A DNA stretch of 23,484 nucleotides from Candidatus Diapherotrites archaeon CG10_big_fil_rev_8_21_14_0_10_31_34 (GTDB lineage Archaea; Iainarchaeota; Iainarchaeia; Iainarchaeales; 1-14-0-10-31-34): the NCBI GenBank assembly GCA_002763225.1, contig PFAI01000051.1, positions 1 to 23,484 of the forward strand. Reading direction: 5' to 3'. The position numbers were made by a program. Below, in pieces: positions 12,001 to 18,000 of this stretch; the first letter of the stretch is position 1, and each line of letters starts with the position of its first letter.

Positions 12001-15000
12001 GTGTTTAAAGACAAAACAAACAAGTCTTCAATGTAATCCTGATTTTTCTGGAAAGAACTTCCTAAAATAAATTCCGGTTCTTTAATGCCTAATTTAGAAA
12101 AAACTTTTTTCCATAATTTAACATTTTCAATTATTTCTTCTTCTGTTCCTTTTTTGTTTAAAAAAGCATGCCAGTCAGCCAGCAAAATTTTTACTTTAAA
12201 ACCTGTTTTCTCCATCTGACTTAATTTGATTGCAGTAACCATATGACCTAAATGAACTTCTCCTGAAGGCTCGTAACCACAATAAGTTATTGGATGCTTT
12301 TTTTCTTTTAATAACTCAAGAATTTCTTCTTGGGTAATTAATTCAACAGTGTTTTCTTCAATTAACTGTATTTTCTGCATTAAATCCATTTCAACCACTT
12401 TTTTTCCATGTATTCTATTTATAGTTAATTGATTATTATTTTATTTGTATGGTTAAGAAAGTAATGGCTTTTGGAACATTTGATGGAATACATCCAGGGC
12501 ATATTTATTATTTAGAACAAGCCAAAAAATTCGGAGAATTAACTGTGGTCATTGCAAGGGATGAAACTGTAAAAAAAGTGAAAGGAAGAAAAACTTTATT
12601 TAAAGAAAAAGAAAGAAAAAAAATGATTGAAAGCCTGAAAGCAGTGGATAAAACTGTTTTTGGAGCAAAAAAAGAAAGCAAATTTGAAATCCTCAAAAAA
12701 TTTAAGCCAGAAATAATTGTTTTAGGCTATGACCAAAAACCATCAAAAAAAGAACTGGAAAAAGAACTAAAAAAAATGAATTTAAAAGCTGAAATAAAAA
12801 GAGTTAAAGCATTAAATTCAAAAAGATTTAAATCATCAAAATTAAAGAAAAAAATAATTGAATTGATAAGTTGAATTAGTTCTTTGAATTATTTTAATTA
12901 GTTAATCTGCTTTCTTTATTCTGGTTATTGGTTTGATTTTATTATTTGATTTTATTATTTGATTTTATTGGTTTGATTTCTCTTTCAATTGTTTTCTGTA
13001 TTCAATTAATTTTTCCGGAGTGGCTTCCATTACAAAACCATAAAAACCGCAGTCAACACAACGCATCTGAGGAGACAAAGCAACCGCATCTTTTCCCATT
13101 CCATAAATTTTTGGTTTCACATTAGTTGAACCGCAGTCAGGACAAAAAGTTAAATACTGTTTTTTTTTCCTGTGAAGCTTTTTTTACTGCTCTGTCAAAC
13201 AAATCCAGATTTTCTTCCACAAAATTACCTTTTAATTTATTCCTTAACTTATTCCCTCAAATTATCCCTCAATTTTTTTCCTTTAATTTTTTTTCTAAAT
13301 ACTTGACTATTTCTAAAGCAACATTAATTTTAGTGGATTCCTCAAAAGCACGGAACTGAGGAGAACGATTGGTTTCCAAAACAAACCATTTTTTATTGAA
13401 TAAAGCTAAATCAACTCCGGAAATTTCCAAATGAGATGCCTTACAGGCTTTAACTGCAATGTCAGAAATTTGTTTAGTTAACTTGAATTCAACTGCTTTT
13501 GCTTCCTGAGCAATGTTTTTAATCCAGTGCTGGGATTCTTTTTCAAAGCCTCCTATTACTTTTCCTCCGACAACCATTACTCTAATTTCTTTTTCAAATT
13601 GAATGAATTCCTGAACCAAAAAAAGTTCTTTGTTGGTTGTATTTAAAGAAGACAAAAAACCATGGATTTCAGAAAAAGCTATTCTTCTGATTCCTTCTCC
13701 TCTTTTTCCTTCCAAAGGCTTTAAAACAAGAAAATCCGAATCAGAAAAAGGAAGAGAATAAACTGTTTTTTCATTTAACAAAAAAGTTTTCGGAATATTC
13801 AGTCCTGCTTTAAGAAAAGCAGCGTAATTAGTGAATTTGTTTCTTCCAGCCATAAAAACAAGTTTTTCATCAACAATTTTTGTTCCGGCAGAAAAAAAAC
13901 TTAACGCTAAAGCTCTTCCTTGTAATCCTTCATTTTTTAAAACCCTGAATAAAACTACATCAAATTTTTTTTGTGAGGGAAGCTCTGCCTGAAAGTTTTC
14001 AGGAGAAATAACTGTCACAAAATGCTTTCTTTTTTCTGCTTCTGATTTAATTCTTTCAACTTCAAATTGTTGTTCTGTTGAAACAATCCCTAATTTCATT
14101 TCAAAACCTGTTTTTTGCCTTAATTTCTTTTACATGATTGTAAATGTATTTCATTAAAATATTAGCAAACTTGTTTTTAAAAAAATCCGGCATTATTCCT
14201 GGTGCAAAATTCACTTCAATTAACTTGTATTTTCCGTCTACTTCCATAAAATCCACTGCACAAACTCCTAAACCCAAAATTGCCGCAGCCTTAACTGCAT
14301 CTTCTTTCATTGCAGAACTTAATTCAATTAACTCGGCTTTTCCGCCCTGAGAAACATTAGTTCTCCATTCCCCTTCTTTTGGAATTCTTTTAATCCCAAA
14401 AACTTCTTCTCCGAAAACCATGCAGCGAATATCATAATTAGCTGATTTAACAAACTCTTGAGTTGAAATAAATTCCTTGAATAATTTTAATGTATCCAAC
14501 ACAGGCCTGAATTCACTTTCAGAATTAGCAATCATTACTCCTCTTCCGCCAAAGCCCGACAAAAGCTTAATTACAACAGGGTAACCAATTTTATGGCTCA
14601 TATCAATTGCAGTCTGCGGAGAAACAGCTAAAGAAGAAATTGGAACAGGAATATTTTCTCTTGACAAAACTTTTACAGTAAAATACTTGTGGTTAGTTAT
14701 CTGAAAGGCTTCTGGAGTCAAAGGAGTAAAAACATCTGACTGATTTAAAATATCTAACACAATTTCTCCAAACATTAAGTCCTTAGAAAAAAATCTTGCA
14801 TAACAGGCATCAAAAGAAGTTAAATCAGTGCCTCTGAACAATAACCTGTTTTTTCCATTAACACATTCAACTTTGATTTTTTGCAGAGGAGCATATAAAA
14901 CAGTATCAAAAAATTTATGAGCTTCCTCTAAAATCATTTGCTTTACTTCCTGCCTTTCATTGCTTCCTCCAATATACAAAAATTTCATTTCAATCACTTT

Positions 15001-18000
15001 TCTTTATTTTACTTAAATAAAATTCTGCTGTAGCTTCAAACAAATTCTTTCCAAGAATTTCCTGAAAAAACATAAAATCAACTGAAGATTTAACACTCAC
15101 AATGTTTCCCTGAATTGATTTAATCACAGCAATATCCAATCCAATAGTATTTTTTGCTTTAATTATGTCTGATTGTTCTTTTTCACTTAAAGTAATACCA
15201 GATCCTTTTTTAACATACTCAAATTTTTCTTTATTCCAAGGTCTTCTGACAGTAAAAACCTGTTCCCCTATAATTGCACTAACATCCAAATCTTTTTCAA
15301 AAAAGTCCTGCAATAAAAGAGTATCAAAATCAGATTTAATACTTTTAACAATTGAAAGCAAAGACTTTTCGGATTCAACCAAGACATCCTGAATTTTTTT
15401 GTATCCGTCAAATACCTGAAGAATCAAAGGAAAAGAAAATTCTTTTAAAGAAGCATTAATAAAAGAACTTGAACCAAAAATATTTGTATCAGGTGTTTTA
15501 ATTTTATGAGCATTTAAAGTAGTAATCTGAAAAGCCTTGCTTGAAAGAATAGAAAAAGAATCAGGTTTTACCTGACAATAAATTCCTTTCTGAGAAAATT
15601 CATCCAATAAAGGTTCAACAAACTGAGTAAACTGAACTCCTACATCCAAAAAACATGAATCAAATTCATCTAATTTCAGGCCACCAAAAATCAAAGTAGT
15701 TTGTTTTCCTTCAGTTAACAAACCTAATTCACTTATATCAATTGCTTCAACTGAAATGTTTTTTTTGTTAAATGCTTCTTTTAACTGAGCAATATACTGA
15801 TTGCCTTTTTCATGAATAAATAATGTTTTCATAATAACTTCCTTAATCATTTACTGCTTCAGGATCAATTTTCTTTTTTTCTGCTTTATTTTTTTGATCA
15901 GATTTTAATTGTTTTTCCGGCGCCCAGACTTTTTTTATTTTTGTTTCAGGATCCTTGGAAATTTCATTAAAAACAAATTCTGAAAGCAAATCAGTTACAA
16001 CAGATTTTCTTCTAATAAGTTTATGCACATATCTTTCAAAAGACTTTGAAAGGTTTTTATAAGAAGCAACATTAGCATAAATTAAGCCTTCCTGTAAACG
16101 CCAGAAAGCAGGAGTTCCTTTTTTTGCAAAAATCAAGTAACCTCTTTTTTTGTCTGTCTCGCTCATTGCTTCATCCAGTAAACGATAATCAACCATATAA
16201 ACTCCTGCAGTCTGAGGAGAAGGATCCATAATAATTATTTCGTCTCCTTCAACTCCAACGCATAAAACAAAATGCCCTGACCTTGATTTTTTTGAAGGAA
16301 ACAAAACAGGTTTTTTATACCACAATAAAAGCATTGCACTGTCAGCAACCCATGACTTAACTTCATCTTTTAAATTATAAATCTGGTTGTATCTCACTAA
16401 CTGTCCTTTAAGCAGGCCATTAGAAAGTTTTTCAACTGAATTAATTAAATCCAATGGTTTTGTTCCGCCAGGAGAAGAAGTTTTAGCTAATTTTCCAATT
16501 TCCTGCTGAGAAAAATTATAACCAAAAAAAGACATCATCATTGAAGCAGAAGCAGGTCCGCAAAAATAATTCAGCTGAGGAATAAATTTGGTTCTGATTG
16601 CTTCAAGTTTAGAGATATCACTTCTCGCTCGCTTAATATAAAACTCTTTTTTCAAAAATTCTTTGTTTGGAATAACCATGTTATATCCTGAAGGCAGTCT
16701 AAGCATTACTCCATGAATGTCTACTCCAATTATTTCTCCTGTTTCTTCTCCAATTTTAATCTGCTGTCCTGGCTTAACTAAATTTCTTTCAATATAAATG
16801 CTTGAAAAAAAGTTTTCAAAAATTTCTTTGAATCCAAAGAAAATAAATGCAAGAACCAAAATGATTACTGCAGTAACCAGAGTGTTAAAGAAACTGCTGA
16901 ACAAACCAATATCAATTCCAACAGAAGAAAAAGAAATCATTAAAACAATCAATAAAAGAAAAATTTTTACTACAAAAAAAAACGAAGAAATAATCGGCTT
17001 TGAAATGCCAAACTCTTCTAAATAAGAATCTGAACCAAACCTTGAAAACAAAAAGCTTACTGCATCAACAATTAAAGTTACCAGAATATATCCTAAAACA
17101 AAAACCAAAAAGAAAATTACTACTGAAGGAAGCAAAGCCATTACTTTTGAAACCAAAACAGACGCAACAGAAATTTTTAACACACTTAAAGCAATAATTA
17201 AAGAAACAACAAAAACAAATAATTCAATTGACTTTGCAACAGAATCAATTGTAAGATAACTTGTTTTTTGTTTTCTTAAAACAAACTCCAAAATTTTTCC
17301 AACAATTTTGGCTAAAATTAATCCTAACAAAATCACTGCAATTGCCTGAGCAACATTGCTGAATAAAACTTCTTCCAGCAAAATATTTCCTAAAGTTTCA
17401 GCCATTCAAATCCCTTTCAGTATAATAAAAGACATTTAAAGAGTTTAAATAGATTGCCTTAAAAAGAAGGTTTTTATAAGGGAAAAAACACTAAAAAAAA
17501 TTAAAAAAAGTAATTCAAGAAAAAAGAAATAAAAACATAACAGGGATTTAATTGTATATGGAGAAAACAAGGAAAAACCGCTTTTTGAAAAACGATTCCG
17601 GCAGCCAAAAAAACAAAGAAAAAAAAACTTTTATAAAAAAGTTTATTAAAAAAAAAGGAAAGAAAAAACTTTTTTTTGAAAGCCAGGGAAACAAAAACTT
17701 TGATTTTAATAAAACAAGAGAATACGGGGAAAAAATTTTAACTGAAAATCTTGGATTAAACAAAAAAGAAAAAGTTCTTGTAATATGCGACGAAACAACT
17801 TTTTTGATTGGAAAAGCATTTCATTTTGCCGGAAAAAAACTTGCAAAAAAATCCAAACTGATTGAAATCAAATCACTTCCATTCAATGGAATGGAACCAA
17901 ATGAAATAATAGCAAAAGAAATGCTTAAATTTGAAGTAATTTTAATGCCGGTAAAAAGTTCTTTAAGCCATACAAAAACAAGAATGCATGCATCAAAACA

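What a model noticed while it worked through the whole genome (the two positions that open the first line are those of the whole stretch)
13269..17405. MscS channel fused to a phytochelatin-synthase-like papain domain in a conserved operon with three RimK-type ATP-grasp l [...]
A 520-aa protein joins an MscS-type membrane channel to a cytoplasmic papain-fold peptidase with an intact Gln/Cys-His-Asp site, and heads an operon of three RimK-like ligases; an M29 peptidase and a glutamate-cysteine-ligase-like gene follow. It looks like a channel carrying its own glutamyl-peptide eraser, paired with glutamylating writers.
Evidence so far: 48 full-length homologues among 7,999 candidates scored; those named are Diapherotrites, Micrarchaeota, Woesearchaeota, Nanohaloarchaeota or unclassified archaea. 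Catalytic Cys282 and Asp394 invariant, His378 and Gln277 in at least 90% of 28 aligned. Model (pLDDT 79): best fold match Nostoc phytochelatin synthase (E 8e-8), then C39 peptidases and MscS/MscK. In 10 of 101 phylum genomes; in 9 of 9 relatives the RimK-like gene follows directly, the second in 8 of 9, the third nearby in at least 3. GCS2 match E 3e-5 at C23:18693.
(Added by a program. Inside this text positions count along the whole contig: contig position 1 is position 1 of the stretch shown here. "Call 12" and the like, gene names such as g00115 and contig names such as C1 are that model's own, and its searches are not shown. The text may have been shortened before it was handed on; [...] marks where a part breaks off. 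The agent that wrote the report below was given it as the finding of a first reader that could run no searches.)

Follow-up and report, generated by a model that had tools for sequence, protein, structure and literature searches.

The report
Channel-like peptidase docking a glutamate ligase
In several groups of tiny archaea, a protein built from a membrane stretch-channel and a cysteine peptidase is predicted to hold a glutamate-chain-building enzyme and its dead twin at the membrane, probably cutting what they build, an arrangement that could tie glutamate polymer turnover to membrane tension.

Summary
The fusion is real: five membrane helices and an MscS beta-domain, then a papain-fold peptidase with Q277/C282/H378/D394 (kept in 80 of 81 copies) in place of the MscS C-terminal domain. 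The 'three ligases' need correcting. The first (A) is a conserved pseudo-enzyme (0 of 60 keep the D/E/N site), the second (B) is an intact RimK-clade glutamate ligase (60 of 60), and the third is optional. A complex model docks the fusion's C-terminal helices (429-469) on A plus B: score 0.72, best control 0.01. Among 78 phylum genomes with the A/B pair, 25 have the fusion, 51 have a RimB-like protease and none has both, though this reflects only 1-2 evolutionary events. In Woesearchaeales the unlinked fusion co-occurs with RimB. The pore helix has lost the MscS Gly/Ala pattern, so 'channel' is doubtful. Phytochelatin-synthase substrate residues are not kept. Best reading (about 0.5): a membrane-anchored RimK-type glutamyl-peptide writer/eraser complex in which the papain domain does RimB's job. 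Substrate, cleavage activity and conductance are untested.

The parts
15843..17405 (-). 520-aa MscS-derived membrane protein fused to a papain-fold cysteine peptidase
16833..17357 (-). Five predicted membrane helices (residues 17-191); the last is the MscS pore-helix equivalent, with bulky residues where MscS has Gly/Ala
   Evidence: model helices; alignment to E. coli MscS; residue counts
16641..16823 (-). MscS beta-domain (residues 195-255); places what follows in the cytoplasm by homology
   Evidence: PF00924; structural match of 83-260 to MscS 19-180
16119..16604 (-). Papain-fold peptidase domain (residues 268-429) with Q277, C282, H378, D394 and conserved K365, R421
15999..16121 (-). Conserved helical extension (residues 429-469), predicted docking site for the A+B pair; W435, K454, R465 invariant in operon-linked copies
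14990..15832 (-). A: RimK-fold pseudo-ligase (ATG at 15832 by comparison with relatives; an upstream ATG lies at 15850)
   Evidence: fold TM 0.89 to RimK; catalytic residues lost
14101..14988 (-). B: intact RimK-clade alpha-L-glutamate ligase
   Evidence: TIGR00768 146.9 bits over cut-off 143.4; nearest solved relatives are RimK, E 4e-51; active site invariant
13269..14099 (-). C: second intact RimK-family ligase of a separate clade, optional
   Evidence: TIGR00768 161.4 bits; D/E/N in 14 of 14; in 13 operon loci; own clade
12965..13219 (-). Small zinc-ribbon gene closing the operon in this genus; one extra base in an A-run near 13160 shifts its frame in this assembly
17552..18664 (+). M29 aminopeptidase, divergent accessory gene
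   Evidence: PF02073 E 3.9e-18; 7 of 43 operon loci
18693..20021 (+). GCS2-family carboxylate-amine ligase, divergent accessory gene
   Evidence: PF04107 E 3.3e-5; 13 of 43 operon loci

Best explanation
A membrane-anchored, RimK-type glutamyl-peptide writer/eraser complex. B ligates glutamate in alpha-linkage using ATP, making free poly-alpha-glutamate or Glu tails on a protein (inferred from family and residues). A is a dead paralogue that co-assembles with B as an adaptor (deadness shown in sequence; co-assembly inferred). The A+B pair docks on helices 429-469 of the fusion (predicted). The adjacent papain domain cuts the glutamyl product, doing the job that a RimB-like aspartic protease does in sister lineages (inferred from gene swap). 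The MscS-derived part is more likely an oligomeric membrane scaffold or sensor than a classical relief valve (inferred). Accessory hydrolases and GCS2 recycle or prime the glutamyl peptides.
For: B keeps RimK R64, R189 and N262, which contact poly-Glu in the P. aeruginosa structure (PMC10092738 section 3.3), in 60 of 60 copies; A keeps D/E/N in 0 of 60 yet folds as RimK. Complex model of fusion 261-497 with A and B: score 0.72, best of 3 controls 0.01; the mark was reached by 116 of 157 solved complexes and 2 of 215 mismatched pairs (counts hold only roughly: own alignments, three chains); runs share at least 79% of contacts; partner pLDDT at least 76; replacing B drops the score to 0.00. W435, K454, R465 of that interface are invariant in 43 of 43 operon-linked fusions and found in 6%, 24% and 3% of 34 unlinked ones. 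In 201 phylum genomes, 78 have the pair: 25 fusion only, 51 RimB only, 2 neither, 0 both; the fusion is never without the pair. RimB sits in the same slot upstream of A in 19 of 20 loci fetched. No full-length RimB in 21 further fusion+pair genomes. Glutamate-related accessory genes within 6 kb in 34 of 43 operon loci against 1 of 35 unlinked. RimB cleaves polyglutamate (PMC11957791).
Against: The RimB-type B proteins form one clade, so the exclusion is 1-2 events, not 76. In a Woesearchaeales sample the unlinked fusion co-occurs with RimB in 20 of 22 genomes (RimB overall 144 of 201), so the peptidase is kept, intact, where RimB is present. One fusion+pair genome has a 33-position RimB-like fragment at a contig end (E 2.3e-6). 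The predicted interface does not involve the peptidase active site. The conservation test is not independent of the model (same alignments; groups are clades), and 7 of the 10 operon-specific positions lie outside the interface. None of the nearest solved folds (PeiR, ComA, Alr0975) is a polyglutamate peptidase (their activities partly recalled). No substrate was identified; bacterial ribosomal protein S6 was not found in this 81%-complete genome.
Confidence: 0.5

Rival explanations
1. A true channel or exporter: the heptamer conducts glutamate or trimmed glutamyl peptides, with the peptidase processing cargo at the cytoplasmic mouth, like MscCG glutamate export or like C39 peptidase-containing ABC transporters.
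For: MscS TM1-TM3 and beta-domain are kept; N198, G213 and G223 (N198 = MscS N117) are highly conserved; C39 domains of PCAT1/ComA are close folds; MscCG exports glutamate (PMC6110860, listing only); plant MSL channels conduct with bulky pore helices (recalled).
Against: Small residues at MscS positions 102, 106 and 108 in 0%, 0% and 9% of 80 fusions against 80%, 57% and 70% of 54 stand-alone relatives; the membrane half has no invariant column while the cytoplasmic half has 19.
Confidence: 0.2
2. A phytochelatin-synthase-like transpeptidase: GCS2 and the ligases make a gamma-glutamyl peptide and the papain domain transfers or trims it to give a thiol or storage oligomer.
For: Alr0975 is the best solved match by sequence profile (E 1.8e-8); PF05023 matches 24 of 44 members; GCS2 is near 13 of 43 operon loci.
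Against: NsPCS Arg173 aligns with a conserved Lys365, and Lys206/Tyr207 are not kept; the Arg-to-Lys change reduces AtPCS1 activity to 0.01% (PMC3855540 Table 1). GCS2 was not seen within 6 kb in 30 of 43 loci, some of them short contigs. PeiR is the better structural match.
Confidence: 0.12
3. A signalling protease: membrane stress activates the peptidase, which cuts a protein target (A, B or an unrelated protein); the ligase pair modifies or regulates the membrane protein rather than feeding it substrate.
For: The fusion keeps its active site in 35 of 35 unlinked copies, mostly alongside RimB. Operon-linked copies carry a 5-57 residue charged C-terminal tail against 1-5 residues in unlinked ones, which a docked ligase could extend.
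Against: It does not explain why RimB is missing wherever the fusion is linked to the pair. Most tails do not end in Glu.
Confidence: 0.13
4. Chance clustering: the fusion and the RimK pair are unrelated genes that came to lie together once.
For: The fusion is unlinked in 35 of 81 loci and the pair lacks it in 53 of 78 phylum genomes.
Against: Linkage is kept in Iainarchaeota-type and Nanohaloarchaeota loci with different flanking genes; 25 of 25 phylum fusions have the pair; the complex model passes.
Confidence: 0.05

Closest known systems
Pseudomonas RimK/RimB (rimABK) polyglutamylation system
   Same: RimK-clade ligase with the poly-Glu-contacting residues; a partner protease in the same gene cluster; RimB-like retropepsins occupy the fusion's slot in sister genomes.
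   Different: Ligase is split into an active and a dead paralogue; the protease is a papain-fold cysteine enzyme tied to a membrane domain; bacterial S6 not found in the genome.
P. aeruginosa rloABC operon (PMC12239564; abstract and Discussion read)
   Same: ATP-grasp enzyme, polyglutamate-cleaving protease and membrane protein in one operon; one member is a pseudo-enzyme; mutants fail under hypo-osmotic stress.
   Different: RloA is a secreted aspartic protease and RloB a transmembrane protein with an inactive transglutaminase domain; here the membrane protein is MscS-derived with an intact cytoplasmic peptidase, and the dead enzyme is the ligase paralogue.
E. coli MscS and short stand-alone MscS-like proteins (PF05552 twice + PF00924; 'CmpX-type' is my recalled label)
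   Same: TM1-TM3 and beta-domain align; nearest non-fused relatives are about 275-aa proteins ending after the beta-domain.
   Different: The C-terminal cage domain is replaced by a peptidase; the pore helix has lost its Gly/Ala pattern.
Nostoc phytochelatin synthase Alr0975, PeiR, and C39 peptidases (ComA, PCAT1)
   Same: Papain fold with Gln/Cys-His-Asp; Z 16-19.5 over 136-166 residues; C39 domains are also fused to membrane transport proteins (PMC10318531 passage).
   Different: 12-23% identity; PCS substrate residues not kept; carries its own docking helices; partner is an MscS-type domain, not an ABC transporter.
ATP-grasp / COOH-NH2 ligase / papain-like peptidase gene clusters (Iyer et al. 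2009; recalled, seen only as a reference)
   Same: Same enzyme logic of ligases paired with peptidases; DUF3335 weakly matches 11 of 44 members.
   Different: I did not read that paper; no MscS fusion or RimK pseudo-ligase pair is recalled from it.

Membership tests
RimK family alpha-L-glutamate ligase (gene B) | Score above the TIGR00768 cut-off | tested here: met
   146.9 against 143.4 bits
RimK family alpha-L-glutamate ligase (gene B) | ATP/metal and glutamate-binding residues (K, K, R64, D-x-R189, R203, R211, D248, E260, N262) | tested here: met
   All invariant in 60 of 60; R64, R189, N262 from PMC10092738, the other numbers recalled
RimK family alpha-L-glutamate ligase (gene B) | Adds glutamate to an acceptor or makes poly-alpha-Glu | not testable with these tools
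   needs an assay
RimK equivalog (S6--L-glutamate ligase) | Score above PRK10446 cut-off | tested here: not met
   110.6 against 331 bits
RimK family ligase (gene A) | ATP-grasp RimK fold | tested here: met
   TM 0.89 to 5zk6, E 3e-20
RimK family ligase (gene A) | Catalytic D/E/N, Gly-rich loop and substrate arginines | tested here: not met
   0 of 60 keep even two of D/E/N; TIGR00768 41.5 bits
LysX/ArgX, CofF, MptN (genes B, C) | Score above the equivalog cut-offs | tested here: not met
   at most 117 against 275.6, 75 against 300, 123 against 350 bits
MscS family | TM1-TM2-TM3 plus beta-domain | tested here: met
MscS family (canonical) | Gly/Ala-patterned pore helix TM3a | tested here: not met
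   importance of the pattern for gating is recalled
MscS family (canonical) | C-terminal alpha/beta cage domain | tested here: not met
   match ends at MscS residue 180 and the peptidase begins at once
MscS family | Heptamer with tension-gated conductance | not testable with these tools
   needs electrophysiology or cryo-EM
Papain-like cysteine peptidase (C39_2, PF13529) | Fold and Gln/Cys-His-Asp site | tested here: met
   44 of 44 members match PF13529; residues in 80-81 of 81; Z up to 19.5
Phytochelatin synthase (C83) | Gln64, Arg173, Lys206, Tyr207 around the substrate cavity | tested here: not met
   Gln kept, Arg aligned to Lys365, Lys and Tyr not kept; rests on one profile alignment
RimB polyglutamate protease | Retropepsin fold with D-T-G motif | tested here: not met
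   the fusion is papain-fold; no RimB match in this genome; it may work like RimB but is not one

The most novel reading that the evidence does not exclude
A mechanosensitive channel turned into a tension-controlled enzyme platform: an MscS-type oligomer whose pore is sealed, and whose movements switch a docked ligase/pseudo-ligase pair and a built-in peptidase between polymerising and releasing glutamate, giving wall-less DPANN cells osmotic control by chemistry instead of by solute efflux.
Probability: 0.2. Interest if true: 0.9.

Novelty: new variant of a known kind. Interest (0 to 1): 0.72.

Why it matters
It identifies a probable polyglutamate writer/eraser pathway that is widespread in genome-reduced archaea (the A/B pair in 78 of 201 phylum genomes; RimB in 144 of 201 Woesearchaeales genomes), where RimK's known bacterial substrate is not expected. 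It adds three things I found in no listing: an MscS-peptidase fusion, a conserved RimK pseudo-enzyme, and a swap between unrelated protease folds in one operon slot. The predicted three-protein complex is soluble when cut at residue 261, so the central claims can be tested directly. A link between MscS-type membrane sensing and polyglutamate turnover would also bear on the unexplained hypo-osmotic phenotype of the Pseudomonas rlo system.

Tried and rejected
Three active ligases: rejected. Phytochelatin synthase proper: rejected on substrate residues. Universal linkage to RimK genes: rejected, 35 of 81 loci are unlinked. Universal exclusion of RimB: rejected, it holds only where the fusion is in the operon. 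Cofactor glutamylation: F420 ligase (PF01996) and pterin-binding (PF00809) families not found in this genome, which is 81% complete, so not excluded. LysW/LysX route: the genome's LysW-like protein lacks the EDWGE end and no ORF ending in that motif was found. A scan for ORFs ending in EE gave 8 of 1,556 with no obvious substrate. Sequencing runs: no RNA holder listed; this says nothing on expression. Joints have short sides and were disregarded. The helices after residue 431 were not folded or searched alone, so nothing is claimed about their fold. Split or longer forms were not searched with the 'shorter'/'longer' option; one search lists short matches that may be fragments. The careful tree of B did not finish; the quick tree was used. 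Homo-oligomer of the fusion and the A:B pair alone were not modelled (single job spent). Earlier scan findings were not available. Ten literature searches showed no description of this fusion or pseudo-ligase pair in the 3-20 listings seen for each; the library lacks most subscription papers and no supplements were read.
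Full report
Observation. The window holds four tightly packed minus-strand genes: the 520-aa fusion (15843-17405), then three RimK-like genes that I call A (14990-15832), B (14101-14988) and C (13269-14099). An M29 peptidase (17552-18664) and a GCS2-family ligase (18693-20021) diverge from the fusion's 5' end on the plus strand. Contigs of four other groundwater runs cover all 30 bins of the region, and pieces of them read through the fusion without frame changes apart from a variant C-terminal tail, so the fusion is not an assembly artefact. 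It has 48 homologues among 7,999 scored candidates. A scan of GTDB genomes found 88 loci, of which the best 80 were kept; their titles name Iainarchaeum/Diapherotrites, Nanohaloarchaea, Woesearchaeota, Aenigmarchaeota, one Micrarchaeota and several 'uncultured Methanosarcinales' (the last group falls among Woesearchaeota and Aenigmarchaeota copies in the tree).

The fusion protein. The model (pLDDT 80.2, pTM 0.44) shows five long helices, a beta-domain, a papain-fold domain and C-terminal helices. Residues 83-260 align with E. coli MscS 19-180 and the match stops where the MscS cage domain would begin; by homology the peptidase is cytoplasmic. The nearest non-fused relatives are stand-alone proteins of about 275 aa with two PF05552 helices and PF00924. 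At MscS pore-helix positions 102, 106 and 108, small residues occur in 0%, 0% and 9% of 80 fusions but in 80%, 57% and 70% of 54 stand-alone relatives; position 108 is aromatic in 86% of fusions. That this pattern matters for gating, and that plant MSL channels conduct without it, is recalled. So conductance is open. Q277, C282 and H378 are present in 80 of 81 copies and D394 in all; the one exception is a Nanohaloarchaeota copy. The fold is closest to PeiR (Z 19.5, rmsd 2.3, 149 aligned), then a phage lyase (17.4), ComA C39 (16.9) and Nostoc Alr0975 (16.8, rmsd 3.0, 164 aligned); by sequence profile Alr0975 is first (E 1.8e-8). In that alignment NsPCS Arg173 falls on K365 (Lys in 79 of 81) and Lys206/Tyr207 are not kept; passages and Table 1 of PMC3855540 report that the Arg-to-Lys change leaves 0.01% activity in AtPCS1. 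It is therefore a papain-fold peptidase of its own, related to but not a member of the PCS family.

The ligases. Of 43 loci where a RimK-like gene follows the fusion, 40 full-length A and 40 B sequences could be aligned; 20 more of each came from genomes without the fusion. B keeps every active-site residue checked in 60 of 60; A keeps two or more of the D/E/N residues in 0 of 60, and has lost the Gly loop and substrate arginines. A still folds as RimK (pLDDT 92; TM 0.89 to 5zk6). B's nearest solved relatives are Pseudomonas and E. coli RimK (E 4e-51, against 6e-33 for ArgX), and it keeps R64, R189 and N262, which contact poly-glutamate in section 3.3 of PMC10092738. RimK is a tetramer (passages of PMC10375531), so a mixed A/B oligomer is the natural reading. 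C is intact (14 of 14), forms its own clade and is seen in 13 loci, downstream or divergently upstream. The conserved core is fusion-A-B.

The swap with RimB. In 201 genomes of the phylum (G000 included), 78 have the A/B pair (two weak A-profile matches, G052 and G004, left out). Of these 25 have the fusion (one is a fragment at a contig end), 51 have a RimB-like retropepsin (three weak matches at E 7e-8 to 4e-6, in genomes without the pair, left out), 2 have neither and none has both. I fetched 20 of the 53 pair-without-fusion loci, chosen for score and contig length: the RimB-like gene (PF05618, D-T/S-G motif) lies divergently upstream of A in 18 by ORF clustering and in a 19th by the genome search. 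A check with PF05618 found nothing in 5 of 5 fusion genomes over 90% complete. In 21 further fusion+pair genomes (20 Nanohaloarchaeota-type, one Woesearchaeota) no full-length RimB was found; one has a 33-position fragment at a contig end. RimB removes glutamates from polyglutamylated RpsF (abstract and passages of PMC11957791). Against over-reading: the 20 RimB-type B proteins form one clade (SH-aLRT 100, quick tree), so the pattern is one or two events. And where the fusion is unlinked it coexists with RimB: 29 of 36 such genomes, and 20 of 22 in an even sample of 201 Woesearchaeales-order genomes in which RimB is in 144. The fusion thus belongs with this pathway but is not simply redundant with RimB everywhere.

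The predicted complex. ESMFold2 on fusion 261-497 with A and B gave 0.72 for the fusion fragment (runs 0.77, 0.64, 0.72) against a best control of 0.01. The mark was reached by 116 of 157 solved complexes and 2 of 215 mismatched pairs; these counts hold only roughly here (my own alignments, three chains). The runs share at least 79% of contacts and the partner's pLDDT is at least 76. With B replaced by an unrelated protein the score is 0.00. The A:B arrangement may be remembered from RimK structures, but only the fragment was scored, and its interface (residues 429-469) lies almost wholly beyond the range matched to solved structures. It touches A mainly at 80-96 and 226-232 and B at 91-93 and 232-239, not the peptidase active site. 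W435, K454 and R465 are invariant in all 43 linked fusions and occur in 6%, 24% and 3% of 34 unlinked ones (L071, nested among linked copies, was left out; it has W/R/R). The one unlinked copy with all three, L102, has a RimK and RimB gene next to it on the other strand. Three of 21 interface positions are linkage-specific against 7 of 463 others; B's E93 is acidic in 38 of 40 linked copies and basic in at least 13 of 20 RimB-type ones. These groups are clades and the model saw the same alignments, so this is corroboration, not an independent test. The model supports binding; it does not show it.

Neighbours. Within 6 kb of the fusion, 34 of 43 linked loci have at least one of GCS2 (13), a DUF1611-like protein (12), M29 (7), M20 (7), N-formylglutamate amidohydrolase (4) or an aspartoacylase-like gene (3), against 1 of 35 unlinked loci (labels from one representative per cluster; the DUF1611 label is a lead carried by 11-16% of the matched clusters' members). 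RimB-type loci often have MATCAP, M29 or GNAT genes. A changing set of glutamyl ligases and hydrolases fits a glutamyl-peptide cycle. An acidic-tailed LysW-like zinc ribbon lies near 12 of these loci and on contig C46 of this genome; it is a candidate acceptor, but also occurs in genomes without the pair.

Mechanism and comparison. Shown in sequence: intact peptidase, intact B and C, dead A, altered pore helix, linkage and exclusion patterns. Predicted: docking of A+B on helices 429-469. Inferred: B makes alpha-glutamyl chains, the papain domain cuts them, and the membrane part is a scaffold or sensor. It works like Pseudomonas RimK/RimB and resembles the rloABC operon, where an ATP-grasp enzyme, a polyglutamate protease and a membrane pseudo-enzyme control hypo-osmotic survival (abstract and Discussion of PMC12239564), but it is a member of neither by composition. 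Passages of the papain-superfamily classification PMC10318531 mention no MscS or RimK. PMC10965496 passages call CmpX an MscS homologue; its domain layout is recalled, not tested. Ten searches showed no description of this system in the listings seen; supplements were not read and arCOG-style tables could hold it.

Unpublished genomes. G205 (L086) is one of the 35 unlinked loci and enters the counts; G367, G384 and G452 are among the 144 RimB-positive genomes. No conclusion depends on them.

Verdict. A real and conserved DPANN module, a new variant of RimK/RimB-type glutamylation systems with an unusual membrane anchor and a pseudo-enzyme subunit. Confidence about 0.7 that the three proteins form a complex, about 0.5 for the whole writer/eraser mechanism. 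Interest 0.72.

Noticed in passing
window 12965-13219 (-): A small zinc-ribbon gene follows C in five relatives of the genus. Here one extra base in an A-run near 13160 shifts its frame; contigs of two of four other runs lack that base and two show no deletion.
   Followed up: partly
G000:C46:1148-1339 (+); L059:6686-6886; L065:9216-9422; L173:10649-10897: A LysW-like zinc-ribbon family with very acidic Glu/Asp tails but no EDWGE end, often a few genes from the A/B pair; candidate acceptor for glutamylation, though also present in genomes without the pair.
   Followed up: partly
L161-L180: A separate Iainarchaeota module: divergent RimB-like protease, pseudo-ligase A, ligase B, then MATCAP carboxypeptidase(s) and M29, often with a GNAT gene.
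   Followed up: partly
L181-L184, L187: A different dead RimK paralogue precedes an intact one in genomes labelled Nanohalarchaeota, Aenigmarchaeota or Methanosarcinales; it scores better to the B profile than to A, so pseudo-ligases may have arisen twice.
   Followed up: no
L190-L200, L102: Woesearchaeota-type genomes carry RimB directly before a single 345-396 aa RimK with a C-terminal extension of about 60 residues.
   Followed up: no
window 20086-21543; L161-L169, L190, L192, L194, L196, L200: IMP dehydrogenase and adenylosuccinate synthetase genes recur beside the RimK cluster in both Iainarchaeota and Woesearchaeota-type loci; may be synteny only.
   Followed up: no
L074-L110 (Nanohaloarchaeota loci): The fusion-A-B block sits directly downstream of ribosomal protein S6e and eIF2-gamma, next to TrkH/TrkA, and is followed by either GCS2 or a DUF1611-like gene.
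   Followed up: partly
L109:9908-11425: One Nanohaloarchaeota fusion has Glu, Ser and Glu at the Q277, C282 and H378 positions yet remains in the operon: a natural dead-peptidase copy.
   Followed up: no
L094, L105, L126: A stand-alone MscS-like gene of about 290 aa lies two genes upstream of the fusion on the other strand; two Woesearchaeota-type loci (L193, L197) have an MscS-like gene just before RimB.
   Followed up: no
window 15826-15911: Other assemblies and protein P0005 have a longer, different C-terminal tail on the fusion, so the tail varies within the population.
   Followed up: partly
window 10306-10707 (-) and 23051-23410 (+): A short ORF in the same cluster as 146-aa neighbours of related loci (looks like a small heat-shock protein, by eye) and an ORF that resembles the start of an integrase (by eye); neither was searched.
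   Followed up: no
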